A DNA stretch of 64,000 nucleotides, from the NCBI RefSeq assembly GCF_016903815.1, contig NZ_CP069973.1; one strand, given 5' to 3'. Under the pieces are notes generated by a model, which had not been told where the DNA came from, searched no databases, and saw only the letters and a list, made by a program, of their open reading frames with translations. Position numbers and translations under genes: made by a program. Positions within the stretch are counted from its first letter, which is position 1; each line of letters begins with the position of its first letter. Of this stretch, positions 11,988-59,959 are shown in pieces. This DNA is from Escherichia coli (GTDB lineage Bacteria > Pseudomonadota > Gammaproteobacteria > Enterobacterales > Enterobacteriaceae).

Positions 11988-12012
11988 TTCCGTAACGTTT
12001 ATCATGTTATCC

Positions 12013-12026
12013 TAAGGATTATCCGA
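12013..12026. promoter_or_regulatory. RcsAB box upstream of rcsA (autoregulation site)
   Basis: TAAGGATTATCCGA resembles the RcsAB box consensus TaAGaatatTCctA and sits in the rcsA upstream region. Confidence 0.55.
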
Positions 12027-12276
12027 AAAATAATACCTACGAACATCTTCCAGGATACTCCTGCGGCGAAATATTTGTTTTAAGCTCACTCACATATCGC
12101 AACATTTACTTTACTTTAAGACAATTCCAGGCAAATTATACAACACTTTACGGGATAGTAAGTCCGCCTGAAAAATCGCGAGAGTGGCGCATTAGGTGAC
12201 CCATGTTGTTCCGTTTAGTCATGATGAAATATTCAGGTAAGGGGAATTATCGTTACGCATTGAGTGAGGGTATGCC

Positions 12277-12900
12277 ATGTCAACGATTATTATGGATTTA
12301 TGTAGTTACACCCGACTAGGTTTAACCGGGTATCTGTTGAGTAGAGGGGTTAAAAAAAGAGAAATCAACGACATTGAAACCGTTGATGACCTTGCCATAG
12401 CTTGTGATTCACAGCGCCCTTCAGTGGTGTTTATTAATGAGGACTGTTTCATCCACGATGCTTCTAACAGTCAGCGTATCAAGTTCATCATTAATCAACA
12501 TCCCAATACGTTATTTATCGTTTTTATGGCAATTGCCAATGTTCATTTTGATGAATATCTATTGGTCAGAAAAAATTTATTGATCAGTTCTAAATCGATT
12601 AAACCGGAATCTCTCGACGATATCCTTGGCGATATTCTGAAAAAAGAGACAACGATAACCTCGTTTTTAAATATGCCGACGTTATCATTGAGCCGAACCG
12701 AATCGAGTATGTTGCGAATGTGGATGGCAGGTCAGGGAACCATTCAAATCTCTGACCAAATGAATATCAAAGCCAAGACCGTTTCATCGCATAAAGGTAA
12801 TATTAAACGTAAGATCAAAACGCATAATAAACAGGTTATCTACCATGTCGTCCGACTGACGGATAATGTGACTAATGGTATTTTTGTCAACATGCGCTAA
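12277..12900 (+). CDS. rcsA: capsule (colanic acid) transcriptional activator RcsA (207 aa)
   Basis: [24 protein letters not shown]... with C-terminal LuxR-type HTH; matches RcsA. Confidence 0.95.
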
Positions 12901-12943
12901 CACATTCTGACTGGTGGTTTCCCACCAGTCAGGCCGAATTAGA

Positions 12944-13222
<279 letters not shown>

Positions 13223-13294
13223 CTATACTTAAGAGATGCCAGGCGGACTTAACGACTGGCCGCAACAACAGAGTAACGGTTGCGAGGAAAGATG

Positions 13295-13522
13295 ATGAAA
13301 ACCGCAAAAGAGTACAGCGATACCGCAAAACGTGAGGTCAGCGTCGATGTCGATGCCCTGCTGGCGGCGATCAATGAAATTAGCGAAAGCGAAGTTCATC
13401 GCAGCCAGAACGATTCTGAACACGTTAGCGTCGATGGACGTGAATATCATACATGGCGTGAATTGGCGGATGCCTTCGAACTGGATATTCATGACTTCAG
13501 CGTCTCTGAAGTGAATCGTTGA
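13295..13522 (+). CDS. yodD: stress-induced protein YodD (75 aa)
   Basis: MKTAKEYSDTAKREVSVDVDALLAAINE... matches YodD; start chosen within the longer track ORF. Confidence 0.88.
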   Translation: MKTAKEYSDTAKREVSVDVDALLAAINEISESEVHRSQNDSEHVSVDGREYHTWRELADAFELDIHDFSVSEVNR

Positions 13523-13535
13523 ATGCACAATAAAA

Positions 13536-13622
13536 AAATCCCGACCCTGAGGGGGTCGGGATGAAACTTGCTTAAGCAAGAAGCACTTAAAAAATTCGTT
13601 ACACCAGGAAATCTGATGTGTT
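13536..13622 (-). ncRNA. dsrA: DsrA small regulatory RNA (Hfq-dependent activator of rpoS translation, anti-H-NS)
   Basis: Reverse complement reads AACACATCAGATTTCCTGGTGTAACGAATTTTTTAAGTGCTTCTTGCTTAAGCAAGTTTCATCCCGACCCCCTCAGGGTCGGGATTT, the DsrA sequence with its terminal hairpin and U-tail. Confidence 0.93.
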
Positions 13623-13801
13623 CATCACCTTATCCGCAATTTTTTTCGCTGACAAGAAAATATTCGTGATATGAATGATTAACGCTACTTATGAATAGAA
13701 ATGTGACGCGCGTCACCCCTTGGTGGCTCTGGCGTCAACGGGATCGCTCCCGAAAAAATCATCTTTGATAATTTGTGCTGTTTTGAGAATCATCCTGGTA
13801 A

Positions 13802-16326
<2,525 letters not shown>

Positions 16327-16397
16327 CCTGACGACTCCCAACCTGCTTTTTTATGATTCTGGCATAACCTGGCGATAGCGTACCGCAAAACAGCGAT

Positions 16398-16549
16398 AAT
16401 TTTATAATGGTGGCATGATAAGACGCGACAGACATCGATAGTTTTATAACGTAGGCATGATAAGACGCGATAGCGTCGCATCAGGCAATTCAGTGCAGAC
16501 ACTGGCACACCCGACCGGATGCGACGTGAGCGCCACATCCGGTCGGGTG
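16398..16549. repeat. REP/BIME-like intergenic repeat cluster (two tandem ~40-bp repeats plus a perfect palindrome)
   Basis: Tandem copies containing GGCATGATAAGACGCGA at 16412-16428 and 16454-16470; palindrome CACCCGACCGGATG...CATCCGGTCGGGTG at 16507-16549. Confidence 0.7.
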
Positions 16550-16563
16550 TTAATGATACCCTT

Positions 16564-16746
16564 TCAAACTTCTTCCGCAGAACGACTCCCCTCCCCCGGA
16601 ACAAGCTCGGTTTCATGAAAAGCTTCCCGCTTGACCCCGTAACCGTCATACCAACGACACTCAACCATACCGCTGGAGTATCCGGTGACAATCATCCGCG
16701 GGCCGCCCTCTTTAACCGTAACTTCCTCACTAACCATAAAGCTCAT
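16564..16746 (-). CDS. yodC: small protein YodC (60 aa)
   Basis: MSFMVSEEVTVKEGGPRMIVTGYSS... matches YodC. Confidence 0.85.
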   Translation of the reverse strand: MSFMVSEEVTVKEGGPRMIVTGYSSGMVECRWYDGYGVKREAFHETELVPGEGSRSAEEV

Positions 16747-16824
16747 ACTCGCCTCCTTTTTTCGAGTGAAACTTGTTCACCTTAGTTGAAGATGGCGAAT
16801 TTTGCATAATAGCCTGTGCGAGTA

Positions 16825-44837: not shown

Positions 44838-47800
44838 ATGGATAACTTGCGCTTCTCTTCTGCGCCGACAGCAGATTCCATTGATGCATCGATCGCTCAA
44901 CACTACCCGGACTGCGAACCTGTCGCGGTTATCGGCTACGCCTGCCATTTTCCTGAATCGCCGGATGGCGAAACGTTCTGGCAAAATCTGCTGGAAGGTC
45001 GTGAATGCAGCCGACGCTTTACGCGCGAAGAGCTTCTGGCCGTCGGTCTGGATGCCGCCATCATTGACGATCCTCATTATGTCAATATCGGTACGGTGTT
45101 AGACAACGCCGACTGCTTCGACGCCACCCTGTTTGGCTATTCGCGACAGGAAGCGGAGTCGATGGACCCGCAGCAGCGCCTGTTTTTGCAGGCGGTCTGG
45201 CATGCGCTGGAACATGCCGGTTATGCCCCCGGCGCCGTCCCCCATAAGACCGGCGTTTTCGCCTCTTCCCGGATGAGTACCTACCCCGGTCGCGAAGCAT
45301 TGAACGTGACAGAAGTCGCGCAGGTAAAAGGTCTGCAATCTCTGATGGGCAATGATAAAGACTATATTGCCACCCGCGCCGCGTACAAACTCAACCTGCA
45401 CGGCCCGGCGTTATCGGTACAGACCGCCTGCTCCAGCTCGCTGGTTGCCGTGCATCTGGCCTGTGAAAGCCTGCGCGCTGGCGAATCCGATATGGCGGTT
45501 GCCGGCGGCGTGGCGCTCTCTTTCCCCCAGCAGGCAGGCTACCGCTACCAGCCCGGAATGATTTTCTCTCCTGATGGTCACTGTCGTCCCTTTGACGCCT
45601 CGGCTGAGGGCACCTGGGCCGGTAACGGTCTCGGCTGCGTGGTGCTGCGTCGCCTGAGAGACGCGCTGCTGTCAGGCGATCCGATTATCTCGGTGATCCT
45701 CTCCAGCGCGGTCAACAACGACGGCAACAGAAAGGTCGGCTATACCGCCCCTTCCGTCGCAGGGCAACAGGCAGTCATCGAAGAGGCGTTAATGCTGGCG
45801 GCCATCGACGACAGGCAGGTAGGTTACATTGAAACCCACGGCACCGGCACACCGCTGGGCGACGCGATTGAAATTGAAGCGTTACGCAACGTCTATGCGC
45901 CTCGCCCGCAGGATCAGCGCTGTGCGCTCGGTTCCGTGAAAAGTAACATGGGCCATCTGGATACCGCGGCGGGCATTGCCGGACTGCTGAAAACCGTTCT
46001 GGCAGTCAGTCGCGGGCAAATTCCTCCCTTACTGAATTTTCACACCCCCAACCCGGCGCTGAAACTTGAAGAGAGCCCCTTTACCATACCGGTGTCGGCA
46101 CAGGCATGGCAGGACGAAATGCGCTATGCGGGCGTCTCCTCCTTTGGTATTGGCGGCACCAACTGCCATATGATCGTCGCCTCGCTGCCCGACGCGCTCA
46201 ACGCGCGCCTCCCCAATACGGATAGCGGCAGAAAAAGTACCGCGCTGCTGCTCAGCGCCGCCAGCGACAGCGCGTTGCGGCGGCTGGCGACGGATTATGC
46301 CGGGGCGCTGAGAGAGAATGCGGATGCCAGCTCTCTGGCCTTCACAGCCCTGCACGCGCGCCGTCTCGATCTCCCCTTCCGCCTGGCGGCGCCATTAAAC
46401 CGTGAAACCGCCGAGGCGCTCAGCGCCTGGGCTAGTGAGAAATCGGGGGCGCTGGTTTACAGCGGCCACGGCGCCAGCGGCAAGCAGGTGTGGCTGTTTA
46501 CCGGCCAGGGCTCGCACTGGCGCACTATGGGTCAAACGATGTACCAGCACTCAACGGCGTTTGCCGACACGCTGGATCGCTGTTTTTCCGCCTGTAGCGA
46601 AATGCTCACGCCGTCACTGCGCGAAGCGATGTTTAACCCCGATTCGGCGCAGCTGGACAATATGGCCTGGGCGCAGCCGGCGATTGTCGCGTTTGAAATC
46701 GCGATGGCGGCGCACTGGCGTGCTGAAGGACTGAAGCCAGACTTCGCCATTGGGCATTCCGTCGGTGAATTTGCCGCTGCCGTTGTCTGCGGACACTATA
46801 CGATTGAACAGGTCATGCCACTGGTTTGTCGGCGCGGCGCGCTAATGCAGCAGTGCGCAAGCGGCGCGATGGTGGCGGTATTTGCAGACGAAGACACGCT
46901 GATGCCGCTGGCTCGCCAGTTTGAGCTGGATCTCGCCGCCAACAACGGTACGCAACATACGGTATTTTCCGGGCCGGAAGCCCGTCTCGCGGTATTTTGC
47001 GCCACGCTCTCGCAGCATGACATTAACTATCGTCGCCTGAGCGTAACCGGTGCGGCGCACTCCGCTTTACTGGAGCCGATACTCGATCGGTTCCAGGACG
47101 CCTGCGCGGGACTGCACGCGGAGCCGGGGCAAATACCGATTATTTCCACGCTCACCGCCAACGTCATTGATGAGTCAACGCTCAACCAGGCGGATTACTG
47201 GCGCCGACACATGCGCCAGCCGGTGCGTTTTATCCAGAGTATTCAGGTGGCGCATCAGCTCGGCACCCGCGTTTTTCTGGAGATGGGGCCCGATGCCCAG
47301 TTGGTTGCTTGCGGGCAGCGCGAATACCGCGATAACGCATACTGGATAGCCAGCGCCCGGCGTAACAAAGAGGCGAGCGATGTCCTCAATCAGGCCCTGC
47401 TCCAGCTTTACGCTGCCGGCGTCGCCCTACCGTGGGCCGACCTGCTGGCGGGCGATGGACAACGTATCGCTGCGCCATGTTATCCGTTTGATACTGAACG
47501 TTACTGGAAAGAGCGCGTCTCCCCGGCCTGCGAGCCTGCCGACGCAGCGCTGTCTGCCGGGCTGGAGGTGGCGAGTCGCGCCGCGACAGCGCTCGATCTC
47601 CCTCGCCTGGAAGCGCTTAAACAGTGCGCCACGCGACTGCACGCCATCTACGTCGATCAACTGGTACAACGCTGTACCGGCGATGCCATAGAGAACGGCG
47701 TGGACGCCATGACCATCATGCGCCGTGGACGTCTGCTGCCCCGCTACCAGCAGCTACTCCAGCGCCTGCTGAATAACTGCGTGGTCGACGGCGATTACCG

Positions 47801-50800
47801 CTGCACCGACGGGCGATACGTCCGCGCCCGCCCCATTGAACATCAACAGCGGGAATCACTGCTGACGGAACTTGCCGGTTATTGTGAAGGTTTTCAGGCT
47901 ATTCCCGACACCATCGCCCGTGCCGGCGATCGGTTATATGAAATGATGAGCGGCGCGGAAGAACCGGTGGCGATTATCTTCCCGCAAAGCGCCTCCGACG
48001 GCGTGGAAGTGCTGTATCAGGAATTCAGCTTTGGCCGCTATTTCAACCAAATCGCCGCCGGGGTATTACGCGGCATTGTCCAGACGCGTCAGCCCCGCCA
48101 GCCGTTGCGTATTCTTGAAGTTGGCGGCGGAACCGGCGGCACCACCGCGTGGCTGCTGCCGGAACTCAACGGCGTTCCGGCACTGGAGTACCATTTCACC
48201 GATATCTCGGCGCTGTTCACCCGTCGCGCCCAGCAGAAATTCGCCGACTATGATTTTGTGAAGTATAGCGAGCTGGATCTCGAAAAAGAGGCGCAGTCTC
48301 AGGGTTTCCAGGCACAGTCTTACGATCTTATCGTGGCAGCGAACGTGATTCACGCCACCCGCCATATTGGCCGCACGCTCGATAATCTGCGCCCCCTGCT
48401 CAAGCCGGGCGGGCGCCTGCTGATGCGCGAAATCACCCAGCCAATGCGTCTGTTTGACTTCGTTTTCGGCCCGCTGGTTCTTCCGCTACAGGATCTCGAC
48501 GCCCGCGAAGGTGAGTTATTCCTCACCACCGCTCAGTGGCAACAACAGTGCCGCCACGCCGGATTCAGCAAAGTGGCGTGGCTACCGCAGGATGGCAGCC
48601 CGACCGCCGGGATGAGCGAACATATCATTCTCGCCACGCTGCCCGGTCAGGCGGTTAGCGCCGTAACATTCACCGCGCCATCAGAACCCGTGTTGGGGCA
48701 GGCGCTGACGGATAACGGTGATTATCTCGCCGACTGGTCTGATTGCGCAGGTCAGCCCGAACAGTTTAACGCCCGCTGGCAGGAGGCCTGGCGTCTGCTT
48801 TCACAGCGTCATGGCGACGCTCTGCCTGTGGAACCGCCCCCCGTCGCCGCCCCGGAGTGGCTGGGGAAGGTTCGCTTAAGCTGGCAAAACAAAGCCTTTT
48901 CCCGCGGTCAGATGCGCGTTGAAGCCCGTCATCCTGCTGGCGAGTGGCTGCCGCTATCGCCCGCCGCGCCTCTTCCTGCGCCGCAAACGCATTATCAATG
49001 GCGCTGGACGCCCCTCAACGTCGCCAGCATTGACCATCCGCTTACCTTTAGCTTCAGCGCCGGTACGCTTGCGCGCAGCGACGAGCTGGCGCAATACGGC
49101 ATCATTCACGATCCGCACGCCTCTTCACGACTGATGATTGTTGAGGAGAGCGAGGATACGCTGGCCTTAGCGGAGAAAGTGATAGCAGCGCTCACCGCCA
49201 GCGCAGCCGGATTGATTGTGGTTACTCGCCGCGCGTGGCGAGTCGAGGAAAATGAAGCACTCTCTGCATCCCATCACGCGCTATGGGCCTTGCTTCGCGT
49301 CGCGGCCAACGAACAGCCGGAACGGTTGCTTGCCGCCATCGATCTCGCCGAAAACACCCCGTGGGAAACGCTGCATCAAGGGTTGAGCGCAGTCTCACTA
49401 TCACAGCGCTGGCTCGCCGCACGGGGTGACACCCTTTGGCTCCCTTCACTGTCGCCCAATACGGGATGCGCCGCTGAATTACCGGCAAACGTGTTTACCG
49501 GCGATAGCCGCTGGCATCTGGTGACCGGAGCGTTTGGCGGATTAGGCCGCCTTGCCGTGAACTGGCTCAGAGAAAAAGGGGCGCGACGCATCGCCCTGCT
49601 GGCGCCGCGCGTGGATGAGTCATGGCTACGCGACGTGGAGGGCGGGCAGACGCGCGTCTGCCGTTGTGATGTGGGCGATGCCGGGCAACTGGCCACGGTT
49701 CTTGACGATCTGGCGGCCAACGGCGGCATTGCCGGAGCGATTCATGCCGCTGGCGTATTGGCTGACGCGCCCTTGCAGGAGCTTGATGACCACCAGCTGG
49801 CTGCCGTTTTCGCGGTAAAAGCGCAGGCGGCAAGCCAGCTGTTGCAAACCCTGCGCAACCACGACGGACGCTATCTTATTCTCTACTCTTCCGCTGCCGC
49901 CACCCTCGGCGCGCCGGGTCAGAGCGCCCATGCGCTGGCCTGCGGCTACCTGGACGGGCTGGCCCAGCAGTTTTCCACCCTTGATGCGCCGAAAACGCTC
50001 TCTGTCGCCTGGGGCGCATGGGGAGAAAGCGGTCGGGCGGCCACGCCGGAAATGCTGGCGACGCTCGCCAGCCGAGGTATGGGCGCGTTAAGCGATGCCG
50101 AAGGCTGCTGGCACCTGGAACAGGCGGTGATGCGCGGCGCCCCGTGGCGACTGGCGATGCGCGTTTTTACCGACAAAATGCCCCCGTTACAACAGGCTCT
50201 GTTTAACATCAGCGCCACAGAAAAAGCCGCAACGCCGGTCATTCCTCCTGCTGATGACAACGCCTTTAACGGCAGCCTGAGCGATGAAACAGCGGTGATG
50301 GCATGGCTGAAAAAGCGGATTGCGGTTCAGCTAAGGCTGAGCGATCCGGCGTCACTGCATCCAAACCAGGATCTGTTGCAACTCGGCATGGACTCGCTGC
50401 TCTTCCTTGAACTCAGTAGCGATATTCAGCACTACCTGGGCGTACGCATCAATGCGGAACGGGCGTGGCAGGATCTGTCTCCTCATGGACTCACGCAGCT
50501 TATCTGTTCTAAGCCAGAGGCGACGCCTGCCGCTTCGCAGCCGGAAGTGTTGCGGCACGACGCCGACGAGCGTTATGCGCCCTTCCCTTTGACGCCCATT
50601 CAGCACGCCTACTGGCTGGGGCGAACCCACCTCATTGGCTATGGCGGCGTCGCCTGTCACGTCCTGTTTGAGTGGGATAAACGCCACGATGAGTTCGATC
50701 TCGCCATACTGGAGAAAGCATGGAACCAGCTCATCGCACGCCACGATATGTTGCGTATGGTGGTTGATGCCGACGGGCAGCAGCGAATCCTGGCGACAAC

Positions 50801-53800
50801 GCCGGAGTATCACATCCCGCGTGACGATCTGCGCGCGCTTTCCCCGGAAGAACAGCGCATCGCGCTGGAAAAACGGCGGCATGAACTGAGCTATCGCGTT
50901 TTGCCTGCCGACCAGTGGCCTCTTTTTGAGCTGGTGGTCAGCGAAATCGACGATTGCCATTACCGTCTGCATATGAACCTCGACCTTTTGCAGTTTGATG
51001 TGCAGAGTTTTAAAGTCATGATGGACGACCTGGCGCAGGTCTGGCGCGGTGAAACGCTGGCGCCGCTCGCTATTACCTTCCGTGATTATGTGATGGCTGA
51101 ACAGGCGCGCCTACAGACATCGGCATGGCACGATGCCTGGGATTACTGGCAGGAAAAACTGCCGCAACTGCCCTTAGCGCCAGAGCTGCCGGTGGTTGAG
51201 ACGCCCCCGGAAACGCCACACTTCACCACCTTCAAATCGACGTTCGGCAAGACAGAATGGCAGGCCGTGAAACAGCGCTGGCAGCAGCAAGGCGTCACAC
51301 CGTCTGCCGCGCTGCTCACGCTGTTTGCCGCTACCCTTGAGCGCTGGAGCCGTACCACAACATTTACGCTGAACCTGACGTTCTTCAATCGCCAGCCGAT
51401 CCATCCGCAAATCAACCAGTTGATTGGTGATTTTACCTCCGTCATGCTGGTTGATTTTAACTTCTCAGCGCCGGTGACGTTGCAAGAGCAGATGCAACAG
51501 ACCCAACAGCGCCTCTGGCAAAACATGGCGCACAGTGAAATGAACGGTGTTGAGGTGATCCGTGAGCTGGGCCGCCTGCGCGGATCACAACGTCAACCGC
51601 TGATGCCGGTAGTGTTTACCAGTATGCTGGGGATGACGCTGGAAGGCATGACTATCGATCAGGCGATGAGCCATCTGTTCGGCGAACCCTGCTATGTATT
51701 CACGCAAACGCCGCAGGTCTGGCTGGATCATCAGGTCATGGAGAGCAACGGCGAGTTGATGTTTAGCTGGTACTGCATGGACAACGTGCTGGAACCCGGC
51801 GCTGCCGAGGCGATGTTTAATGACTATTGCGCCATCCTGCAAGCCGTCATCGCCGCCCCTGAAAGCCTGAAGACTCTCGCCAGCGGCATCGCCAGGCACA
51901 TTCCCCGCCGACGCTGGCCGCTGAACGCGCAGGCGGACTACGACCTGCGGGATATTGAGCAGGCGACGCTCGAATACCCCGGCATCCGGCAGGCCAGAGC
52001 GGAAATAACCGAACAGGGCGCGTTGACGCTGGATATCGTGATGGCCGACGATCCTTCGCCATCAGCGGCGATGCCTGATGAGCACGAACTTACCCAACTG
52101 GCGCTGCCGTTGCCTGAGCAGGCGCAGCTTGATGAGCTGGAGGCGACCTGGCGCTGGCTGGAGGCGCGTGCGCTACAGGGGATCGCGGCTACGCTAAATC
52201 GTCACGGCCTGTTTACCACGCCGGAGATCGCCCATCGCTTTAGCGCAATAGTACAGGCGCTGTCCGCGCAAGCGTCTCACCAGCGTCTGCTGCGCCAGTG
52301 GCTACAGTGTCTGACGGAAAGAGAGTGGTTAATCCGCGAAGGTGAAAGCTGGCGCTGCCGCATTCCGCTCAGCGAGATTCCTGAGCCTCAGGAAGCGTGC
52401 CCGCAAAGCCAATGGAGCCAGGCGCTGGCGCAGTATCTGGAAACCTGCATCGCCCGGCACGACGCCCTCTTCTCCGGGCAGTGTTCTCCGCTGGAATTGC
52501 TGTTCAACGAGCAGCATCGCGTTACCGACGCGCTGTATCGCGACAACCCCGCCAGCGCCTGTCTGAATCGCTATACCGCGCAGATTGCCGCCTTGTGCAG
52601 CGCAGAACGGATTCTGGAGGTTGGCGCCGGAACCGCAGCCACTACCGCGCCGGTGCTGAAGGCCACGCGGAACACGCGACAGTCGTACCACTTCACGGAC
52701 GTCTCCGCGCAGTTCCTCAATGACGCCAGAGCCCGTTTCCATGATGAATCGCAGGTGTCTTATGCCTTGTTCGACATCAACCAGCCGCTGGATTTCACCG
52801 CCCACCCGGAGGCGGGTTACGACCTGATCGTTGCCGTCAATGTGCTCCACGACGCCAGCCATGTCGTCCAGACGTTGCGCAGATTAAAACTGTTGCTGAA
52901 AGCCGGCGGACGTTTGCTGATCGTTGAAGCGACGGAGCGAAACAGCGTATTCCAGCTGGCGAGCGTGGGCTTTATTGAGGGATTAAGCGGATACCGCGAT
53001 TTCCGCCGCCGGGATGAGAAACCGATGCTCACCCGCTCCGCATGGCAGGAGGTTCTCGTTCAGGCCGGGTTTGCAAACGAGCTGGCGTGGCCCGCGCAGG
53101 AATCGTCGCCGCTGCGCCAGCATCTGCTGGTAGCGCGTTCGCCTGGCGTAAATCGCCCGGATAAAAAAGCCGTGAGCCGCTATTTACAGCAGCGCTTTGG
53201 CACCGGTCTGCCCATTTTACAGATCCGGCAAAGAGAAGCGTTATTTACGCCGCTGCATGCCCCGTCTGATGCGCCGACTGAGCCAGCCAAACCCACGCCA
53301 GTTGCCGGGGGGAATCCGGCGCTGGAAAAACAGGTGGCTGAACTCTGGCAATCGCTGCTGTCTCGCCCCGTGGCAAGGCATCACGACTTTTTCGAACTGG
53401 GCGGCGACAGCCTGATGGCGACAAGGATGGTCGCGCAGCTAAACCGGAGAGGGATTGCCAGGGCTAACCTTCAGGATCTGTTCAGCCATTCGACGCTGAG
53501 CGACTTCTGCGCCCATCTACAGGCGGCTACGTCAGGAGAGGACAACCCGATACCCCTTTGCCAGGGCGACGGTGAGGAAACCCTGTTTGTCTTCCACGCT
53601 TCAGACGGCGATATCAGCGCCTGGCTGCCGCTCGCTAGCGCGTTGAACAGGCGCGTTTTCGGCCTGCAAGCAAAATCGCCGCAGCGCTTTGCCACGCTCG
53701 ACCAGATGATCGATGAGTATGTCGGGTGCATCCGTCGTCAGCAGCCTCACGGCCCTTATGTGCTGGCGGGTTGGTCGTATGGCGCGTTTCTTGCGGCGGG

Positions 53801-54329
53801 CGCCGCACAACGCCTGTACGCCAAAGGTGAGCAGGTTCGGATGGTGTTAATCGATCCCGTGTGCCGACAGGATTTCTGTTGCGAAAACCGGGCGGCCCTG
53901 CTGCGCCTGTTAGCCGAAGGACAAACGCCTCTGGCACTGCCCGAACATTTCGACCAGCAGACGCCCGACAGCCAGCTTGCCGACTTTATCAGCCTCGCTA
54001 AAACGGCCGGTATGGTGTCGCAAAACCTGACGCTGCAAGCGGCAGAAACGTGGCTCGACAACATCGCGCATCTGCTGCGTTTACTGACTGAGCATACGCC
54101 GGGCGAAAGCGTTCCGGTCCCCTGTCTCATGGTGTATGCCGCCGGGAGACCCTCGCGCTGGACGCCAGCAGAAACCGAGTGGCAGGGCTGGATAAACAAC
54201 GCCGACGACGCTGTGATTGAAGCCAGCCACTGGCAAATCATGATGGAAGCCCCCCACGTTCAGGCTTGTGCGCAACACATTACGCGCTGGCTTTGCGCAA
54301 CCTCAACGCAACCGGAGAACACGTTATGA
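44838..54329 (+). CDS. irp1: yersiniabactin PKS/NRPS hybrid HMWP1 (3163 aa)
   Basis: KS (TACSSSLVAVH), AT (GHSVGEFAA), KR (TGAFGGLGR), ACP (LGMDSLL), Cy (FPLTPIQHAYWLGR, DLLQFDVQS), MT, PCP (GGDSLMATR), TE (GWSYGA). Confidence 0.95.
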   Translation: MDNLRFSSAPTADSIDASIAQHYPDCEPVAVIGYACHFPESPDGETFWQNLLEGRECSRRFTREELLAVGLDAAIIDDPHYVNIGTVLDNADCFDATLFGYSRQEAESMDPQQRLFLQAVWHALEHAGYAPGAVPHKTGVFASSRMSTYPGREALNVTEVAQVKGLQSLMGNDKDYIATRAAYKLNLHGPALSVQTACSSSLVAVHLACESLRAGESDMAVAGGVALSFPQQAGYRYQPGMIFSPDGHCRPFDASAEGTWAGNGLGCVVLRRLRDALLSGDPIISVILSSAVNNDGNRKVGYTAPSVAGQQAVIEEALMLAAIDDRQVGYIETHGTGTPLGDAIEIEALRNVYAPRPQDQRCALGSVKSNMGHLDTAAGIAGLLKTVLAVSRGQIPPLLNFHTPNPALKLEESPFTIPVSAQAWQDEMRYAGVSSFGIGGTNCHMIVASLPDALNARLPNTDSGRKSTALLLSAASDSALRRLATDYAGALRENADASSLAFTALHARRLDLPFRLAAPLNRETAEALSAWASEKSGALVYSGHGASGKQVWLFTGQGSHWRTMGQTMYQHSTAFADTLDRCFSACSEMLTPSLREAMFNPDSAQLDNMAWAQPAIVAFEIAMAAHWRAEGLKPDFAIGHSVGEFAAAVVCGHYTIEQVMPLVCRRGALMQQCASGAMVAVFADEDTLMPLARQFELDLAANNGTQHTVFSGPEARLAVFCATLSQHDINYRRLSVTGAAHSALLEPILDRFQDACAGLHAEPGQIPIISTLTANVIDESTLNQADYWRRHMRQPVRFIQSIQVAHQLGTRVFLEMGPDAQLVACGQREYRDNAYWIASARRNKEASDVLNQALLQLYAAGVALPWADLLAGDGQRIAAPCYPFDTERYWKERVSPACEPADAALSAGLEVASRAATALDLPRLEALKQCATRLHAIYVDQLVQRCTGDAIENGVDAMTIMRRGRLLPRYQQLLQRLLNNCVVDGDYRCTDGRYVRARPIEHQQRESLLTELAGYCEGFQAIPDTIARAGDRLYEMMSGAEEPVAIIFPQSASDGVEVLYQEFSFGRYFNQIAAGVLRGIVQTRQPRQPLRILEVGGGTGGTTAWLLPELNGVPALEYHFTDISALFTRRAQQKFADYDFVKYSELDLEKEAQSQGFQAQSYDLIVAANVIHATRHIGRTLDNLRPLLKPGGRLLMREITQPMRLFDFVFGPLVLPLQDLDAREGELFLTTAQWQQQCRHAGFSKVAWLPQDGSPTAGMSEHIILATLPGQAVSAVTFTAPSEPVLGQALTDNGDYLADWSDCAGQPEQFNARWQEAWRLLSQRHGDALPVEPPPVAAPEWLGKVRLSWQNKAFSRGQMRVEARHPAGEWLPLSPAAPLPAPQTHYQWRWTPLNVASIDHPLTFSFSAGTLARSDELAQYGIIHDPHASSRLMIVEESEDTLALAEKVIAALTASAAGLIVVTRRAWRVEENEALSASHHALWALLRVAANEQPERLLAAIDLAENTPWETLHQGLSAVSLSQRWLAARGDTLWLPSLSPNTGCAAELPANVFTGDSRWHLVTGAFGGLGRLAVNWLREKGARRIALLAPRVDESWLRDVEGGQTRVCRCDVGDAGQLATVLDDLAANGGIAGAIHAAGVLADAPLQELDDHQLAAVFAVKAQAASQLLQTLRNHDGRYLILYSSAAATLGAPGQSAHALACGYLDGLAQQFSTLDAPKTLSVAWGAWGESGRAATPEMLATLASRGMGALSDAEGCWHLEQAVMRGAPWRLAMRVFTDKMPPLQQALFNISATEKAATPVIPPADDNAFNGSLSDETAVMAWLKKRIAVQLRLSDPASLHPNQDLLQLGMDSLLFLELSSDIQHYLGVRINAERAWQDLSPHGLTQLICSKPEATPAASQPEVLRHDADERYAPFPLTPIQHAYWLGRTHLIGYGGVACHVLFEWDKRHDEFDLAILEKAWNQLIARHDMLRMVVDADGQQRILATTPEYHIPRDDLRALSPEEQRIALEKRRHELSYRVLPADQWPLFELVVSEIDDCHYRLHMNLDLLQFDVQSFKVMMDDLAQVWRGETLAPLAITFRDYVMAEQARLQTSAWHDAWDYWQEKLPQLPLAPELPVVETPPETPHFTTFKSTFGKTEWQAVKQRWQQQGVTPSAALLTLFAATLERWSRTTTFTLNLTFFNRQPIHPQINQLIGDFTSVMLVDFNFSAPVTLQEQMQQTQQRLWQNMAHSEMNGVEVIRELGRLRGSQRQPLMPVVFTSMLGMTLEGMTIDQAMSHLFGEPCYVFTQTPQVWLDHQVMESNGELMFSWYCMDNVLEPGAAEAMFNDYCAILQAVIAAPESLKTLASGIARHIPRRRWPLNAQADYDLRDIEQATLEYPGIRQARAEITEQGALTLDIVMADDPSPSAAMPDEHELTQLALPLPEQAQLDELEATWRWLEARALQGIAATLNRHGLFTTPEIAHRFSAIVQALSAQASHQRLLRQWLQCLTEREWLIREGESWRCRIPLSEIPEPQEACPQSQWSQALAQYLETCIARHDALFSGQCSPLELLFNEQHRVTDALYRDNPASACLNRYTAQIAALCSAERILEVGAGTAATTAPVLKATRNTRQSYHFTDVSAQFLNDARARFHDESQVSYALFDINQPLDFTAHPEAGYDLIVAVNVLHDASHVVQTLRRLKLLLKAGGRLLIVEATERNSVFQLASVGFIEGLSGYRDFRRRDEKPMLTRSAWQEVLVQAGFANELAWPAQESSPLRQHLLVARSPGVNRPDKKAVSRYLQQRFGTGLPILQIRQREALFTPLHAPSDAPTEPAKPTPVAGGNPALEKQVAELWQSLLSRPVARHHDFFELGGDSLMATRMVAQLNRRGIARANLQDLFSHSTLSDFCAHLQAATSGEDNPIPLCQGDGEETLFVFHASDGDISAWLPLASALNRRVFGLQAKSPQRFATLDQMIDEYVGCIRRQQPHGPYVLAGWSYGAFLAAGAAQRLYAKGEQVRMVLIDPVCRQDFCCENRAALLRLLAEGQTPLALPEHFDQQTPDSQLADFISLAKTAGMVSQNLTLQAAETWLDNIAHLLRLLTEHTPGESVPVPCLMVYAAGRPSRWTPAETEWQGWINNADDAVIEASHWQIMMEAPHVQACAQHITRWLCATSTQPENTL

Positions 54330-56229: not shown

Positions 56230-57807
56230 ATGAATTCTTCCTTTGAATCTCTGATTGAACAGTATCCCTTACCCATTGCCGAACAGTTGCGCCACTGGGC
56301 GGCCCGTTATGCCTCGCGAATTGCCGTCGTTGATGCAAAGGGGTCGTTAACCTACAGCGCGCTTGATGCACAAGTTGACGAACTTGCCGCAGGTCTGTCA
56401 TCACTGGGTTTGCGTTCGGGGGAGCATGTAATTGTGCAGCTTCCCAACGACAACGCGTTTGTTACCCTGCTGTTCGCCTTGTTAAGACTGGGCGTTATCC
56501 CCGTGCTGGCGATGCCCTCGCAACGGGCTCTGGATATCGACGCGCTGATTGAGCTGGCGCAACCCGTCGCTTACGTTATTCACGGGGAAAACCACGCAGA
56601 GCTGGCCCGACAGATGGCGCACAAACACGCCTGCTTGCGTCATGTTCTGGTCGCTGGAGAGACCGTGAGCGACGATTTTACGCCGCTCTTCTCCCTTCAC
56701 GGTGAGCGACAGGCATGGCCGCAGCCTGATGTTTCCGCCACCGCGTTGTTGTTGCTCTCAGGCGGCACAACCGGCACGCCCAAACTCATCCCGCGCCGAC
56801 ATGCCGACTATAGCTATAACTTCAGCGCTTCTGCTGAACTGTGCGGCATCAGCCAACAGAGCGTGTATCTCGCCGTCCTCCCGGTGGCGCATAACTTTCC
56901 GCTGGCCTGCCCCGGTATTCTGGGAACGCTTGCCTGCGGCGGAAAAGTGGTGCTGACCGACAGCGCCAGCTGTGATGAGGTGATGCCTTTAATCGCGCAG
57001 GAAAGAGTGACTCACGTCGCCCTGGTTCCGGCGCTGGCGCAATTATGGGTGCAGGCCAGGGAGTGGGAAGACAGCGACCTTTCGTCGCTGCGCGTCATTC
57101 AGGCAGGCGGCGCCCGGCTCGACCCGACGCTTGCTGAGCAGGTTATCGCCACCTTTGACTGTACCCTGCAACAGGTTTTCGGTATGGCGGAAGGCCTGCT
57201 CTGTTTTACCCGGCTGGACGATCCGCATGCCACCATTCTCCACAGCCAGGGGCGCCCGTTGTCCCCTCTGGATGAAATCCGCATCGTTGATCAAGACGAG
57301 AACGACGTCGCGCCGGGCGAAACCGGGCAATTGTTAACGCGCGGCCCTTATACCATTTCGGGCTATTACCGCGCTCCTGCCCACAACGCGCAGGCCTTTA
57401 CCGCGCAAGGGTTTTACCGCACAGGCGACAATGTCAGGCTGGATGAGGTGGGGAACCTGCACGTTGAGGGACGCATAAAAGAGCAGATCAACCGCGCCGG
57501 AGAAAAAATAGCCGCGGCTGAAGTGGAATCGGCACTGCTGCGTTTAGCGGAAGTGCAAGATTGCGCGGTGGTCGCCGCGCCGGACACGCTGCTTGGCGAG
57601 CGGATTTGCGCGTTTATCATCGCGCAGCAGGTGCCAACTGACTATCAGCAGTTGCGTCAACAACTGACCCGTATGGGGCTCAGCGCGTGGAAAATTCCTG
57701 ACCAAATCGAGTTTCTGGACCACTGGCCGCTCACCGCCGTCGGCAAGATAGACAAAAAACGCCTGACGGCTCTCGCCGTCGACCGTTATCGCCATTCTGC
57801 CCAATAA
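56230..57807 (+). CDS. ybtE: salicyl-AMP ligase YbtE (525 aa)
   Basis: Adenylate-forming enzyme core motif SGGTTGTPKL; 525 aa. Confidence 0.93.
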   Translation: MNSSFESLIEQYPLPIAEQLRHWAARYASRIAVVDAKGSLTYSALDAQVDELAAGLSSLGLRSGEHVIVQLPNDNAFVTLLFALLRLGVIPVLAMPSQRALDIDALIELAQPVAYVIHGENHAELARQMAHKHACLRHVLVAGETVSDDFTPLFSLHGERQAWPQPDVSATALLLLSGGTTGTPKLIPRRHADYSYNFSASAELCGISQQSVYLAVLPVAHNFPLACPGILGTLACGGKVVLTDSASCDEVMPLIAQERVTHVALVPALAQLWVQAREWEDSDLSSLRVIQAGGARLDPTLAEQVIATFDCTLQQVFGMAEGLLCFTRLDDPHATILHSQGRPLSPLDEIRIVDQDENDVAPGETGQLLTRGPYTISGYYRAPAHNAQAFTAQGFYRTGDNVRLDEVGNLHVEGRIKEQINRAGEKIAAAEVESALLRLAEVQDCAVVAAPDTLLGERICAFIIAQQVPTDYQQLRQQLTRMGLSAWKIPDQIEFLDHWPLTAVGKIDKKRLTALAVDRYRHSAQ

Positions 57808-57815
57808 GCGCAAAC

Positions 57816-57886
57816 CGACCCGAAACAGGTTGAAATAAACCCGTTTCGGGTAGCACTACTATTAGAAATAGTTATCATTTTCAATT
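57816..57886. promoter_or_regulatory. fyuA promoter: inverted repeat (candidate YbtA site) plus Fur-box-like element
   Basis: ACCCGAAACAGG...CCCGTTTCGGGTAGCA at 57818-57855, then GAAATAGTTATCATTTTCAAT at about 57865-57885. Confidence 0.65.
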
Positions 57887-57937
57887 CACCATTGTCGGTA
57901 TTTTTGGCGTTTCGCCGTCTTACAGGGACTCACAACA

Positions 57938-59959
57938 ATGAAAATGACACGGCTTTATCCTCTGGCCTTGGGGGGATTATTGCTCCCCGCCATTGCTAAT
58001 GCCCAGACTTCACAGCAAGACGAAAGCACGCTGGTGGTTACCGCCAGTAAACAATCTTCCCGCTCGGCATCAGCCAACAACGTCTCGTCTACTGTTGTCA
58101 GCGCGCCGGAATTAAGCGACGCCGGCGTCACCGCCAGCGACAAACTCCCCAGAGTCTTGCCCGGGCTCAATATTGAAAATAGCGGCAACATGCTTTTTTC
58201 GACGATCTCGCTACGCGGCGTCTCTTCAGCGCAGGACTTCTATAACCCCGCCGTCACCCTGTATGTCGATGGCGTCCCTCAGCTTTCCACCAACACCATC
58301 CAGGCGCTTACCGATGTGCAAAGCGTGGAGTTGCTGCGAGGCCCACAGGGAACGTTATATGGCAAAAGCGCTCAGGGCGGGATCATCAACATCGTCACCC
58401 AGCAGCCGGACAGCACGCCGCGCGGCTATATTGAAGGCGGCGTCAGTAGCCGCGACAGTTATCGAAGTAAGTTCAACCTGAGCGGCCCCATTCAGGATGG
58501 CCTGCTGTACGGCAGCGTCACCCTGTTACGCCAGGTTGATGACGGCGACATGATTAACCCCGCGACGGGAAGCGATGACTTAGGCGGCACCCGCGCCAGC
58601 ATAGGGAATGTGAAACTGCGTCTGGCGCCGGACGATCAGCCCTGGGAAATGGGCTTTGCCGCCTCACGCGAATGTACCCGCGCCACCCAGGACGCCTATG
58701 TGGGATGGAATGATATTAAGGGCCGTAAGCTGTCGATCAGCGATGGTTCACCAGACCCGTACATGCGGCGCTGCACTGACAGCCAGACCCTGAGTGGGAA
58801 ATACACCACCGATGACTGGGTTTTCAACCTGATCAGCGCCTGGCAGCAGCAGCATTATTCGCGCACCTTCCCTTCAGGTTCGTTAATCGTCAATATGCCT
58901 CAGCGCTGGAATCAGGATGTGCAGGAGCTGCGCGCCGCAACCCTGGGCGATGCGCGTACCGTTGATATGGTGTTTGGGCTGTACCGGCAGAACACCCGCG
59001 AGAAGTTAAATTCAGCCTACGACATGCCGACAATGCCTTATTTAAGCAGTACCGGCTATACCACCGCTGAAACGCTGGCCGCATACAGTGACCTGACCTG
59101 GCATTTAACCGATCGTTTTGATATCGGCGGCGGCGTGCGCTTCTCGCATGATAAATCCAGTACACAATATCACGGCAGCATGCTCGGCAACCCGTTTGGC
59201 GACCAGGGTAAGAGCAATGACGATCAGGTGCTCGGGCAGCTATCCGCAGGCTATATGCTGACCGATGACTGGAGAGTGTATACCCGTGTAGCCCAGGGAT
59301 ATAAACCTTCCGGGTACAACATCGTGCCTACTGCGGGTCTTGATGCCAAACCGTTCGTCGCCGAGAAATCCATCAACTATGAACTTGGCACCCGCTACGA
59401 AACCGCTGACGTCACGCTGCAAGCTGCGACGTTTTATACCCACACCAAAGACATGCAGCTTTACTCTGGCCCGGTCGGGATGCAGACATTAAGCAATGCG
59501 GGTAAAGCCGACGCCACCGGCGTTGAGCTTGAAGCGAAGTGGCGGTTTGCGCCAGGCTGGTCATGGGATATCAATGGCAACGTGATCCGTTCCGAATTCA
59601 CCAATGACAGTGAGTTGTATCACGATAACCGGGTGCCGTTCGTACCACGTTATGGCGCGGGAAGCAGCGTGAACGGCGTGATTGATACGCGCTATGGCGC
59701 ACTGATGCCCCGACTGGCGGTTAATCTGGTCGGGCCGCATTATTTCGATGGCGACAACCAGTTGCGGCAAGGCACCTATGCCACCCTGGACAGCAGCCTG
59801 GGCTGGCAGGCGACTGAACGGATGAACATTTCCGTCTATGTCGATAACCTGTTCGACCGTCGTTACCGTACCTATGGCTACATGAACGGCAGCAGCGCCG
59901 TCGCGCAGGTCAATATGGGTCGCACCGTCGGTATCAATACGCGAATTGATTTCTTCTGA
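57938..59959 (+). CDS. fyuA: TonB-dependent yersiniabactin/pesticin outer-membrane receptor FyuA/Psn (673 aa)
   Basis: Signal peptide, TonB box (STLVVTAS), C-terminal terminal-Phe beta-barrel signature (...INTRIDFF). Confidence 0.95.
   Translation: MKMTRLYPLALGGLLLPAIANAQTSQQDESTLVVTASKQSSRSASANNVSSTVVSAPELSDAGVTASDKLPRVLPGLNIENSGNMLFSTISLRGVSSAQDFYNPAVTLYVDGVPQLSTNTIQALTDVQSVELLRGPQGTLYGKSAQGGIINIVTQQPDSTPRGYIEGGVSSRDSYRSKFNLSGPIQDGLLYGSVTLLRQVDDGDMINPATGSDDLGGTRASIGNVKLRLAPDDQPWEMGFAASRECTRATQDAYVGWNDIKGRKLSISDGSPDPYMRRCTDSQTLSGKYTTDDWVFNLISAWQQQHYSRTFPSGSLIVNMPQRWNQDVQELRAATLGDARTVDMVFGLYRQNTREKLNSAYDMPTMPYLSSTGYTTAETLAAYSDLTWHLTDRFDIGGGVRFSHDKSSTQYHGSMLGNPFGDQGKSNDDQVLGQLSAGYMLTDDWRVYTRVAQGYKPSGYNIVPTAGLDAKPFVAEKSINYELGTRYETADVTLQAATFYTHTKDMQLYSGPVGMQTLSNAGKADATGVELEAKWRFAPGWSWDINGNVIRSEFTNDSELYHDNRVPFVPRYGAGSSVNGVIDTRYGALMPRLAVNLVGPHYFDGDNQLRQGTYATLDSSLGWQATERMNISVYVDNLFDRRYRTYGYMNGSSAVAQVNMGRTVGINTRIDFF

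What the first reader, a model, noticed from the sequence alone, without database searches (positions are those of the whole stretch)
57816..57886. Second copy of the same inverted-repeat plus Fur-like box, upstream of fyuA
The 57818-57855 segment nearly duplicates the irp2-promoter repeat (one G to A change in the left arm), followed by GAAATAGTTATCATTTTCAAT. The shared 3' extension GGGTAGCA suggests the recognition element is longer than the palindrome core.
Basis: seen in the sequence. Interest (0 to 1): 0.3.

Follow-up and report, generated by a model that had tools for sequence, protein, structure and literature searches.

The report
Known YbtA/Fur control site of fyuA
This is the already described control region of the yersiniabactin receptor gene fyuA in the E. 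coli high-pathogenicity island: two repeated boxes for the activator YbtA placed just upstream of an iron-repressor (Fur) box; the only addition is that three bases after the repeat (TAG) belong to the conserved box.

Summary
Window 57817-57855 repeats the irp2-promoter element at 38534-38572. A 23-nt block is identical, and the 18-mer AACCCGTTTCGGGTAGCA occurs only at these two sites (0.04 expected). It lies between ybtE and fyuA in the Yersinia high-pathogenicity island, which 2266 of 5426 complete E. coli genomes carry. Published work already calls these "repeated sequences" (RS) YbtA binding sites, next to Fur boxes, in the fyuA, irp2 and ybtA/ybtP promoters. The finding is therefore already known.

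Their YbtA homologues are 45-100% identical and come from gamma-, beta- and alphaproteobacteria.
- TAG is as conserved as the core: T 20, A 17 (G 6), G 23 of 23.
- The following CA is not conserved.
- TAG also tends to follow the distal repeat, whereas the mirror-image CTA upstream of it is not conserved.

Family-wide, the element therefore reads best as two tandem units, CCGWWnCGGGTAG, 21 bp apart. The apparent palindrome in E. coli comes from each unit's internal symmetry. The proximal unit ends where a -35 hexamer would sit. A -10-like TATCAT inside the Fur box follows 19 nt later. This is a typical AraC-family activator layout.

The parts
57805..57807 (+). ybtE stop codon (TAA). The element starts 10 nt downstream, with no U-tract terminator in between.
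   Evidence: ORF 56230-57807; annotated as ybtE; sequence; no canonical + strand terminator found here.
57817..57829 (+). Distal YbtA-box unit (RS), GACCCGAAACAGG. It is followed by TTG (57830-57832) instead of the family-typical TAG.
   Evidence: CAGG is conserved in the fyuA promoters of 5 of the 6 other genomes examined; K. indica has CGGG. Columns -34..-22 of the 23-site alignment.
57833..57837 (+). A-rich inter-unit spacer, AAATA, conserved family-wide (consensus AAAtA).
   Evidence: Columns -18..-14: A 18/20, A 17/20, A 18/20, T 13/20, A 16/20.
57838..57853 (+). Proximal YbtA-box unit including the conserved 3' extension: AACCCGTTTCGGG + TAG.
   Evidence: Identical in the irp2 copy. GGG and TAG are the best-conserved columns of the whole site: G 23, G 22, G 23, T 20, A 17 (G 6), G 23 of 23.
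57850..57855 (+). GTAGCA, the position a -35 hexamer would occupy (17-bp spacer to TATCAT). It matches TTGACA at only 3/6. The final CA (57854-57855) is not conserved in the family.
   Evidence: Geometry. No consensus sigma-70 promoter was found, as expected for an activator-dependent promoter. Inferred; the transcription start was not mapped here.
57856..57859 (+). Hypervariable 4-nt linker (CTAC) between the box and the Fur/-10 block.
   Evidence: CTAC, GTGC, GCAC, GCGC, GCTC and CCAC in six species, while both flanks stay invariant.
57864..57882 (.). Fur-like box (13/19 to the consensus on the - strand, 12/19 on the +), overlapping the -10 element.
   Evidence: The block ATTAGAAAT(A/G)GTTATCATTTTCAA is nearly invariant in six species. 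An equivalent Fur-type block lies at the same distance in about 22 of 23 family sites.
57873..57878 (+). -10-like hexamer TATCAT (5/6 to TATAAT), starting 22 nt after the T of TAG.
   Evidence: The best -10-like hexamer starts at +22 in 14 of 23 sites, range +19..+25. Inferred, not mapped.
57938..59959 (+). fyuA coding sequence (TonB-dependent yersiniabactin receptor), the gene controlled by this element.
   Evidence: ORF; annotation.
38534..38598 (+). irp2-promoter copy. Distal unit 38534-38546, proximal unit + TAG 38555-38570, Fur box 38580-38598 (15/19).
   Evidence: The same Fur-box sequence, GTTAATAATTATTATTCTC, lies in a fragment shifted by Fur in EMSA in Salmonella pESI (PMC11225919).
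37403..37468 (-). Degenerate third copy facing ybtP, in the divergent ybtP/ybtA region. Distal unit 37468-37456, proximal unit 37447-37435, TAG 37434-37432, Fur box 37421-37403 (15/19), TATTAT 37412-37407.
   Evidence: found by the core-only scan at 12/14.
37493..38452 (+). ybtA, the AraC-type regulator presumed to bind the boxes.
   Evidence: 100% identical to proteins named yersiniabactin transcriptional regulator YbtA; Pfam PF12833 and PF00165.

Best explanation
Window 57817-57882 is the regulatory core of the fyuA promoter in the Yersinia high-pathogenicity island.

**Activation (inferred by analogy with AraC-family activators).** Two YbtA-box units, about 16 bp each and 21 bp apart start to start (two helical turns), are most likely bound by a YbtA dimer carrying ferric yersiniabactin, one monomer per unit. 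The proximal unit, AACCCGTTTCGGGTAG, ends inside the position of a weak -35 hexamer (GTAGCA). Bound YbtA can therefore contact RNA polymerase, as AraC-family activators do when their site overlaps the -35 region.

**Repression (inferred from position and consensus).** A Fur box at 57864-57882 overlaps the -10-like TATCAT (57873-57878). Iron-loaded Fur would therefore block the promoter.

**Which steps are shown and which are not.**
- Shown here: the sequence, its duplication at irp2, a degenerate third copy facing ybtP, and deep conservation of the box, including TAG, at a fixed distance from the Fur/-10 block.
- Taken from the literature: these repeats are YbtA binding sites, and fyuA is activated by YbtA and repressed by Fur.
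- Inferred: the tandem (direct-repeat) reading, the -35/-10 assignment and the polymerase contact.
For: - **Location and identity:** the element lies between ybtE and fyuA. ybtA in the window is the YbtA AraC-type regulator.
- **Specific duplication:** the 18-mer is unique to the irp2 and fyuA promoters, 0.04 expected, and a 23-nt block is identical.
- **Restricted to the island:** every one of the 2266 E. coli genomes with any match to the 45-nt element is among those carrying ybtE-fyuA. No match at E<=10 appears in the other 3160 complete genomes.
- **Literature:** RS repeats in the irp2, fyuA and irp6/ybtA promoters are YbtA binding sites, and Fur boxes accompany them (PMC5634559; PMC8725597; PMC11225919).
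- **Close relatives** (FyuA 92-97% identical): core, GGGTAGC and the Fur/-10 block are invariant, while a 4-nt linker and the upstream flank vary.
- **Distant relatives** (YbtA homologues 45-79% identical; Serratia, Pluralibacter, Xenorhabdus, Pectobacterium, Erwinia, Burkholderia, Xanthomonas, Agarivorans, Novosphingobium): the same two-unit box sits in the promoters flanking the regulator gene, with no gaps needed to align 23 sites.
- **Unbiased recovery:** a core-only scan that ignores TAG recovers all sites. It finds TAG or TGG only in the promoter-facing orientation, and no TAG among background hits.
- **Geometry:** a -10-like hexamer starts at +22 in 14 of 23 sites.
- **Analogy:** siderophore-sensing AraC-type Btr binds two direct repeats, with the proximal one overlapping a weak -35. 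AraC and sigma recognise overlapping nucleotides (PMC3333878).
Against: - No binding, footprint or transcription-start data were produced here, and the primary YbtA papers could not be read.
- The fyuA Fur box is weak by consensus (13/19, a score reached 26 times in the window).
- In the E. coli irp2 and fyuA copies themselves, the inverted-repeat reading fits better than the direct one (13-14/16 versus 10-11/16). Family-wide the margin for the direct reading is small (mean 9.7 versus 8.9 of 16).
- The 23 sites are related by descent and are not independent.
- Conservation of TAG at the proximal unit could partly reflect polymerase (-35) contacts rather than YbtA contacts.
Confidence: 0.85

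Rival explanations
1. The element is a true symmetric operator. A head-to-head YbtA dimer recognises the inverted repeat ACCCGAAAC...GTTTCGGGT. TAG then extends the palindrome outward, with a matching CTA on the left.
For: In the E. coli irp2 and fyuA copies the inverted register matches 13-14 of 16 positions, against 10-11 for the direct register. In K. michiganensis, K. oxytoca and Raoultella the left arm is preceded by CTA, giving a perfect outward extension, CTACCCGAAAC...GTTTCGGGTAG. Katumba et al. call the sites pseudopalindromes.
Against: Across 23 family sites the mirror positions upstream of the distal unit are not CTA (C12, T2, A9 of 23). TAG instead follows the distal unit on the same strand (T14, A15, G13). 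In 13 of the 17 sites outside the irp2/fyuA-type copies (the E. coli and S. symbiotica irp2 and fyuA sites and the X. bovienii downstream site) the direct register fits better. The core is self-palindromic (CCCGnnnCGGG), so any tandem pair looks inverted.
Confidence: 0.25
2. The conserved TAG(CA) is conserved as part of the -35 promoter element read by sigma-70, not as part of YbtA recognition.
For: With a 17-bp spacer to TATCAT, the -35 hexamer is exactly GTAGCA. E. coli irp2 and fyuA share C and A at hexamer positions 5-6, matching TTGACA. AraC and sigma are known to read overlapping bases (PMC3333878).
Against: GTAGnn matches TTGACA poorly and does not drift toward it in any lineage (GTAGAT, GTGGTT, GTGGTG, GCAGAT, GTAGAA, GCGGCA). 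The CA that does match the consensus is the unconserved part. TAG is also enriched after the distal unit, 21 bp upstream of any -35. The two explanations are not mutually exclusive.
Confidence: 0.3
3. The inverted repeat acts in RNA. It forms a hairpin at the 3' end of the irp2-ybtE transcript that terminates or stabilises it.
For: It starts 10 nt after the ybtE stop, with no other terminator in between. The RNA folds at -20.2 kcal/mol, z = -4.6; the irp2 copy folds at -23.0, z = -5.3.
Against: No U-tract follows (AGCACUACUAUUAG). The irp2 copy sits after a separate strong ybtA terminator hairpin (38483-38517, -36.9 kcal/mol, then UCUUUCC), so it would be redundant there. Hairpin potential is not conserved where the box is: Erwinia z = +0.67, Xanthomonas -0.87, Pluralibacter -0.25. 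At most this is a lineage-specific side effect.
Confidence: 0.08
4. The 23-nt identity between the two copies reflects recent duplication or gene conversion inside the island, or a small dispersed repeat (REP/MITE), rather than selection on a binding site.
For: The two copies share an uninterrupted identical block, while the third (ybtP) copy is much more diverged. The K. indica deletion junction shows that the copies can recombine.
Against: The element occurs only in high-pathogenicity-island-positive E. coli genomes and only at ybt promoters. The same positions are kept in loci whose regulators are only 45-57% identical and whose intergenic DNA is otherwise unalignable. In S. symbiotica the two copies have diverged from each other at non-core positions.
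Confidence: 0.05

Closest known systems
RS1/RS2 'repeated sequences' of the Yersinia HPI promoters (psn/fyuA, irp2, ybtA-ybtP/irp6), the YbtA binding sites of Fetherston et al. 1996 and Anisimov et al. 2005
   Same: Same island, same gene (fyuA = psn), same position upstream of a Fur box, and a sequence shared with irp2 and ybtP/ybtA. This is that element in E. coli.
   Different: Nothing substantive. The published boundaries of RS could not be read here. It is therefore unknown whether TAG was already included, or whether the tandem reading and the family-wide consensus have been stated.
AraC at araBAD (I1-I2 half-sites) and XylS at Pm: AraC/XylS-family activators on two direct repeats 21 bp apart, with the proximal one overlapping -35 (established knowledge; partly PMC3333878)
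   Same: Two units with a 21-bp period, the proximal unit ending inside the -35 position, a weak -35, and dependence on a small-molecule-loaded activator.
   Different: The unit sequence is unrelated apart from a coincidental TAGC. Each YbtA unit is internally palindromic, which AraC and XylS half-sites are not. Orientation of YbtA monomers is untested.
Btr at the feuA promoter of Bacillus subtilis (siderophore-sensing AraC-type activator; PMC3333878)
   Same: A ferric-siderophore co-activator, two direct repeats, the proximal repeat overlapping a poor -35, and control of the cognate uptake gene.
   Different: The repeats are 9 bp and of different sequence, in a Gram-positive host. Btr has a substrate-binding-protein-like ligand domain. 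No Fur box is described over the -10 in the passages read.
PchR and the PchR-box of Pseudomonas aeruginosa pyochelin genes (Michel et al. 2005, known to me only by citation)
   Same: An AraC-type regulator of a thiazoline siderophore related to yersiniabactin. It is activated by the ferric siderophore, its conserved box lies in receptor and biosynthesis promoters, and Fur represses the same genes.
   Different: The PchR-box sequence could not be retrieved, so no sequence comparison was made.
Fur box (GATAATGATAATCATTATC)
   Same: An AT-rich 19-mer overlapping the -10, conserved across species. fyuA is de-repressed in a fur mutant (PMC11225919).
   Different: Only 13/19 at fyuA. Direct Fur binding was shown in that paper for the ybtA and irp2 fragments, not for fyuA.

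Membership tests
YbtA-binding repeated sequences (RS) of HPI promoters | Lies in the promoter region of a YbtA-activated operon of the island (fyuA/psn, irp2, ybtP/irp6, ybtA). | tested here: met
   57817-57853 lies 85-121 nt upstream of the fyuA start, between ybtE and fyuA.
YbtA-binding repeated sequences (RS) of HPI promoters | Sequence shared with the repeats in the other YbtA-controlled promoters of the same island. | tested here: met
   34/38 identical to the irp2 copy, with a 23-nt identical block. A degenerate copy faces ybtP.
YbtA-binding repeated sequences (RS) of HPI promoters | Co-occurs with a YbtA-type regulator gene and is conserved with it across species. | tested here: met
   23 sites in 10 loci with YbtA homologues 45-100% identical.
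YbtA-binding repeated sequences (RS) of HPI promoters | Physically bound by YbtA and required for activation. | not testable with these tools
   Reported or proposed in the literature (PMC5634559, PMC11225919, PMC8725597, citing Fetherston 1996 and Anisimov 2005). The primary papers are not held.
AraC/XylS-family activator site overlapping the -35 region | Two half-sites about 21 bp apart, each of monomer size (about 16-20 bp). | tested here: met
   Units start at 57817 and 57838. The 21-bp period is kept without gaps in 23 sites.
AraC/XylS-family activator site overlapping the -35 region | The half-sites are direct repeats (same orientation). | tested here: inconclusive
   Asymmetric TAG follows both units family-wide and the mirror CTA is absent. 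In E. coli, however, the inverted register scores higher (13-14 versus 10-11 of 16).
AraC/XylS-family activator site overlapping the -35 region | The proximal half-site overlaps or abuts the -35 hexamer of a mapped promoter. | tested here: inconclusive
   TATCAT at 57873-57878 with a 17-bp spacer puts -35 at 57850-57855. No transcription start was mapped, and the consensus scan calls no promoter.
Fur box | Good match to the 19-bp consensus. | tested here: inconclusive
   13/19, a score reached 26 times in the window. The irp2 and ybtA/P boxes score 15/19, the top two in the window.
Fur box | Overlaps core promoter elements of an iron-repressed gene and is conserved. | tested here: met
   It overlaps the -10-like hexamer, is nearly invariant in six species, and sits at a fixed distance in the family. 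fyuA is de-repressed in a fur mutant (PMC11225919).
Intrinsic (rho-independent) terminator | GC-rich hairpin immediately followed by a U-tract. | tested here: not met
   A hairpin is present (-20.2 kcal/mol), but the tail is AGCACUACUAUUAG. The only scan hits on the element are on the - strand and use a single unit.
Dispersed repeat (REP/MITE) | Many copies scattered in the genome, independent of gene function. | tested here: not met
   Only ybt promoters in the window. No match in the 3160 E. coli genomes lacking the island.

The most novel reading that the evidence does not exclude
The YbtA box is a family-wide tandem motif of two CCGWWnCGGGTAG units 21 bp apart. It sits at a fixed distance, usually 19 nt, upstream of a -10 hexamer embedded in a Fur box.

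- It is conserved from alpha- to gammaproteobacteria beside YbtA-like regulators only 45-57% identical.
- TAG is a protein-contacted part of each unit.
- The palindrome seen in the Yersinia/E. coli island is a lineage-specific by-product.

If no one has stated this consensus, it gives a ready sequence signature. It could predict YbtA-type regulons, including receptor-only 'piracy' loci in Pectobacterium, Erwinia, Agarivorans and Novosphingobium, and orphan regulators such as the one in Xenorhabdus bovienii.
Probability: 0.5. Interest if true: 0.3.

Novelty: already known. Interest (0 to 1): 0.15.

Why it matters
fyuA encodes the yersiniabactin receptor, a virulence and fitness factor of extraintestinal E. 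coli, Klebsiella and Yersinia. Its promoter combines iron status (Fur) with a siderophore signal (YbtA).

The element itself is textbook for this island, so the finding adds nothing new about E. coli. The comparative result is modestly useful in three ways:
- It fixes the box boundary: TAG is in, CA is out.
- It suggests that monomers bind in tandem.
- It provides a motif for finding YbtA-type regulons and siderophore-piracy loci in other bacteria.

Tried and rejected
- **Primary papers not held.** The primary YbtA papers (Anisimov 2005) and the Perry & Fetherston 2011 review could not be read, nor could the Y. pestis Fur regulon paper. Published RS boundaries and mapped transcription starts therefore could not be checked.
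- **Sequence search of papers failed.** Searching full text for the box sequence itself found only unrelated primer matches.
- **PchR-box not retrieved.** Its sequence was absent from the open-access reviews I read, so no comparison was made.
- **Consensus promoter scan found nothing.** It called no sigma-70 promoter at either site. This is uninformative for activator-dependent promoters.
- **The 12-mer core alone is not above chance** when 2 mismatches are allowed. Significance needs the longer element.
- **E. coli copy number is ambiguous.** The search gave a median of 3 places per genome. Because the element is palindromic and has two copies, I used this result only to show absence from island-negative genomes.
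- **Rejected readings.** The terminator and RNA-hairpin reading was rejected, as was the dispersed-repeat reading.
- **Limited yield from the FyuA scan.** The genome-contig scan with FyuA returned only 5 loci. Distant sites came instead from YbtA homologues.

Full report
**1. What is there**

The window carries the Yersinia high-pathogenicity island (HPI) of E. coli.
- tRNA-Asn lies at 29784-29859, followed by an ORF at 30010-30936 that I take to be the island's integrase (not checked).
- The gene order is ybtS-X-Q-P on the minus strand (ending at 37326), then ybtA 37493-38452, irp2 (ATG at 38644) to 44750, irp1 44838-54329, ybtU, ybtT, ybtE 56230-57807 and fyuA 57938-59959.
- RefSeq annotates the 57600-58100 segment as ybtE and fyuA. 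2266 of 5426 complete E. coli genomes carry it, nearly all at 99% identity or more.

The element begins 10 nt after the ybtE stop codon. Its sequence is GACCCGAAACAGG-TTGAAATA-AACCCGTTTCGGG-TAGCA (57817-57855). After it come a short linker and then AGAAATAGTTATCATTTTC (57864-57882).

**2. Checking the observation**

- The inverted repeat is real: arms 57818-57831 and 57838-57851, 14 nt, 93% complementary.
- The irp2 copy is at 38534-38572.
- The left arm differs by the stated G>A change. The spacer differs at three more positions.
- The longest identical block is 23 nt, 57833-57855 = 38550-38572.
- The 18-mer AACCCGTTTCGGGTAGCA, with up to 3 mismatches allowed, hits only these two places, against 0.04 expected.
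- The fyuA Fur-like box matches the consensus at only 13/19, a score reached 26 times in the window. The irp2 and ybtA/ybtP boxes score 15/19, the two best in the window.
- A third, degenerate copy of the whole arrangement faces ybtP on the minus strand (37468-37403): GACCAATGCGGGT-ATAAATAG-AACCGAATGGGG-TAG-AT..., followed by GATAATGGTTATTATTCAC.

**3. It is already described**

Three open-access papers say so.
[quoted passage not shown] YbtA is proposed to bind them as a dimer with yersiniabactin (PMC5634559).
- One states that each HPI operon leader has a Fur box plus pseudo-repeats predicted to be YbtA sites (PMC8725597).
- One states that the repeats serve as YbtA binding sites, citing Fetherston et al. 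1996. It also shows that fyuA, irp2 and ybtP lose expression in a ybtA mutant and are de-repressed in a fur mutant. Fur shifts the ybtA and irp2 promoter fragments, and the irp2 Fur-box sequence given there is identical to 38580-38598 (PMC11225919).

I could not read the primary papers.

**4. Testing the 'longer than the palindrome' idea**

*Close relatives.* A FyuA-based scan returned loci from K. michiganensis, K. oxytoca, R. ornithinolytica, K. indica and S. enterica subsp. diarizonae, with FyuA 92-97% identical. In the alignment:
- The core, GGGTAGC and the block ATTAGAAAT(A/G)GTTATCATTTTCAA are essentially invariant.
- The 4 nt after TAGC(A) are hypervariable: CTAC, GTGC, GCAC, GCGC, GCTC, CCAC.
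- The upstream flank also varies.

*Distant relatives.* YbtA homologues form a graded series. I fetched loci for Serratia symbiotica (79%), Pluralibacter gergoviae (57%), Xenorhabdus bovienii (56%), Pectobacterium (55%), Erwinia rhapontici (51%), Burkholderia oklahomensis (49%), a Xanthomonas (46%), Agarivorans (47%) and Novosphingobium (45%).
- Every locus has the same two-unit element in the promoters flanking the regulator gene.
- The 23 sites align without a single gap.
- Counts of 23 at the proximal unit: C21 C19 G18 - W W W - C17 G23 G22 G23, then T20 (C3), A17 (G6), G23.
- The next two positions are A12/C7/T4 and T9/A6/G6/C2.
- TAG therefore belongs to the conserved element, and CA does not.

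*Control for selection bias.* A scan using only CCGnnnCGGG-N11-CCGnnnCGGG ignores TAG.
- It recovered all 23 sites at 11/14 or better.
- Because the core is palindromic, most sites were found on both strands.
- TAG, TGG, CAG or CGG appeared after the second unit only in the promoter-facing orientation.
- No background hit had TAG.

**5. Palindrome or tandem?**

Each unit is itself a small palindrome (CCCG-nnn-CGGG), so two tandem units necessarily look like an inverted repeat. The asymmetric flanks decide the orientation.
- TAG also follows the distal unit in many systems (T14, A15, G13 of 23). Examples are Pectobacterium ...TTCGGGTAGAAATC..., Burkholderia ...TTGGGGTAGAAGTC... and Novosphingobium ...GCGGGTAGAGAAAA...
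- The mirror CTA upstream of the distal unit is not conserved: C12, T2, A9.
- Family-wide the direct register fits slightly better, 9.7 versus 8.9 of 16.
- In the E. coli irp2 and fyuA copies the inverted register fits better, 13-14 versus 10-11. The reasons are the AAA and TTT centres, and CAT or TTG replacing TAG at the distal unit.
- In three Klebsiella/Raoultella genomes a left-hand CTA does exist.

I therefore favour tandem binding, with a probability of about 0.6, but I do not regard it as settled.

**6. Promoter geometry (inferred)**

- A -10-like hexamer, TAT(C/T)AT, starts 22 nt after the T of TAG in 14 of 23 sites, range +19 to +25. In fyuA this is TATCAT at 57873-57878.
- A 17-bp spacer puts the -35 position at 57850-57855 (GTAGCA, 3/6 to consensus). 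The proximal unit therefore ends inside it.
- The Fur-type block occupies about +9 to +29 and covers the -10.
- This is the layout of AraC-family activators whose proximal site overlaps -35. The siderophore-sensing Btr is an example: two direct repeats, the proximal one over a weak -35 (PMC3333878).
- TAG conservation at the proximal unit could in part reflect polymerase contacts. Two observations argue that YbtA is the main constraint. The hexamer never drifts toward TTGACA, and TAG recurs after the distal unit.

**7. Rival readings**

*RNA hairpin or terminator.* The E. coli copies fold well as RNA, at -20.2 and -23.0 kcal/mol, z = -4.6 and -5.3.
- No U-tract follows.
- The irp2 copy lies behind a separate strong ybtA terminator hairpin (38483-38517, -36.9 kcal/mol).
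- Hairpin potential is lost in Erwinia, Xanthomonas and Pluralibacter, where the box is retained.

*Dispersed repeat.* This is excluded. All E. coli genomes with a match are island-positive, and the other 3160 genomes have none at E<=10.

*Gene conversion.* This may keep the irp2 and fyuA copies similar, but it cannot explain conservation beside regulators that are only 45-57% identical.

**8. Verdict**

The extension is real for TAG but not for CA. 'Palindrome' is probably the wrong frame.
- Novelty: already known.
- The comparative consensus and the deletion seen in K. indica are minor additions.

Noticed in passing
L004 (Klebsiella indica) 1-5022; junction at L004 2880-2946: In K. indica, ybtP-ybtA (96% identical to window 35631-38599) is joined directly to fyuA (90% identical to window 57817-59959). 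The two alignments overlap exactly in the repeated box + Fur element. The ~19-kb irp2-ybtE biosynthetic block is absent. The junction box is a hybrid, irp2-type in the distal half and fyuA-type downstream. This looks like a deletion by recombination between the two promoter copies, leaving a regulator + receptor locus.
   Followed up: partly
L010 (Pectobacterium), L011 (Erwinia rhapontici), L014 (Agarivorans), L015 (Novosphingobium): These YbtA-like regulators sit with YbtPQ-like ABC exporters or importers, an MFS protein and a TonB-dependent receptor. No NRPS/PKS genes lie within the fetched flanks. All carry the same box + Fur architecture. They are possible siderophore-piracy (uptake-only) modules.
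   Followed up: partly
L009 (Xenorhabdus bovienii) 9900-11080: An orphan YbtA homologue (56% identical) lies among cobalamin-synthesis and toxin genes. It has well-conserved boxes plus Fur-like boxes on both sides (AAATAAACCCGTTTCGGGTAG is identical to E. coli), but there are no ybt genes within 10 kb. What the downstream box drives is unclear; only small ORFs follow.
   Followed up: no
L006 (Serratia symbiotica) 9732-20400: The ybt locus is degraded. irp2 is truncated to 928 aa, a transposase is inserted, and irp1 is missing. The three box + Fur promoters, ybtA and fyuA are still intact.
   Followed up: no
window 38483-38523: A strong terminator-type hairpin (15-bp stem, -36.9 kcal/mol, z = -5.5) followed by TCTTTCC lies directly after ybtA and 11 nt before the irp2 box. 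The simple terminator scan missed it. The fyuA copy has no equivalent terminator after ybtE.
   Followed up: partly
window 28703-30936: tRNA-Ser(cga) lies at 28703-28792 and tRNA-Asn(gtt) at 29784-29859. An ORF of 308 aa (30010-30936), which I took to be the island integrase, follows. This marks the left end of the island at an asn tRNA gene. I did not check whether the ORF encodes an integrase, or whether 308 aa is full-length.
   Followed up: no
window ~37472-37483: CCACAGGGAGAT, just upstream of the ybtA start, is the CsrA-binding motif reported for the ybtA leader in E. coli M1/5 (PMC8805033).
   Followed up: no
L012 11367-11810 and L013 11262-11699: In the Burkholderia and Xanthomonas loci, the box downstream of the regulator drives a small ORF (145-147 aa, no Pfam hit) placed before the irp2-like NRPS gene. 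The enterobacterial island has no such ORF.
   Followed up: no
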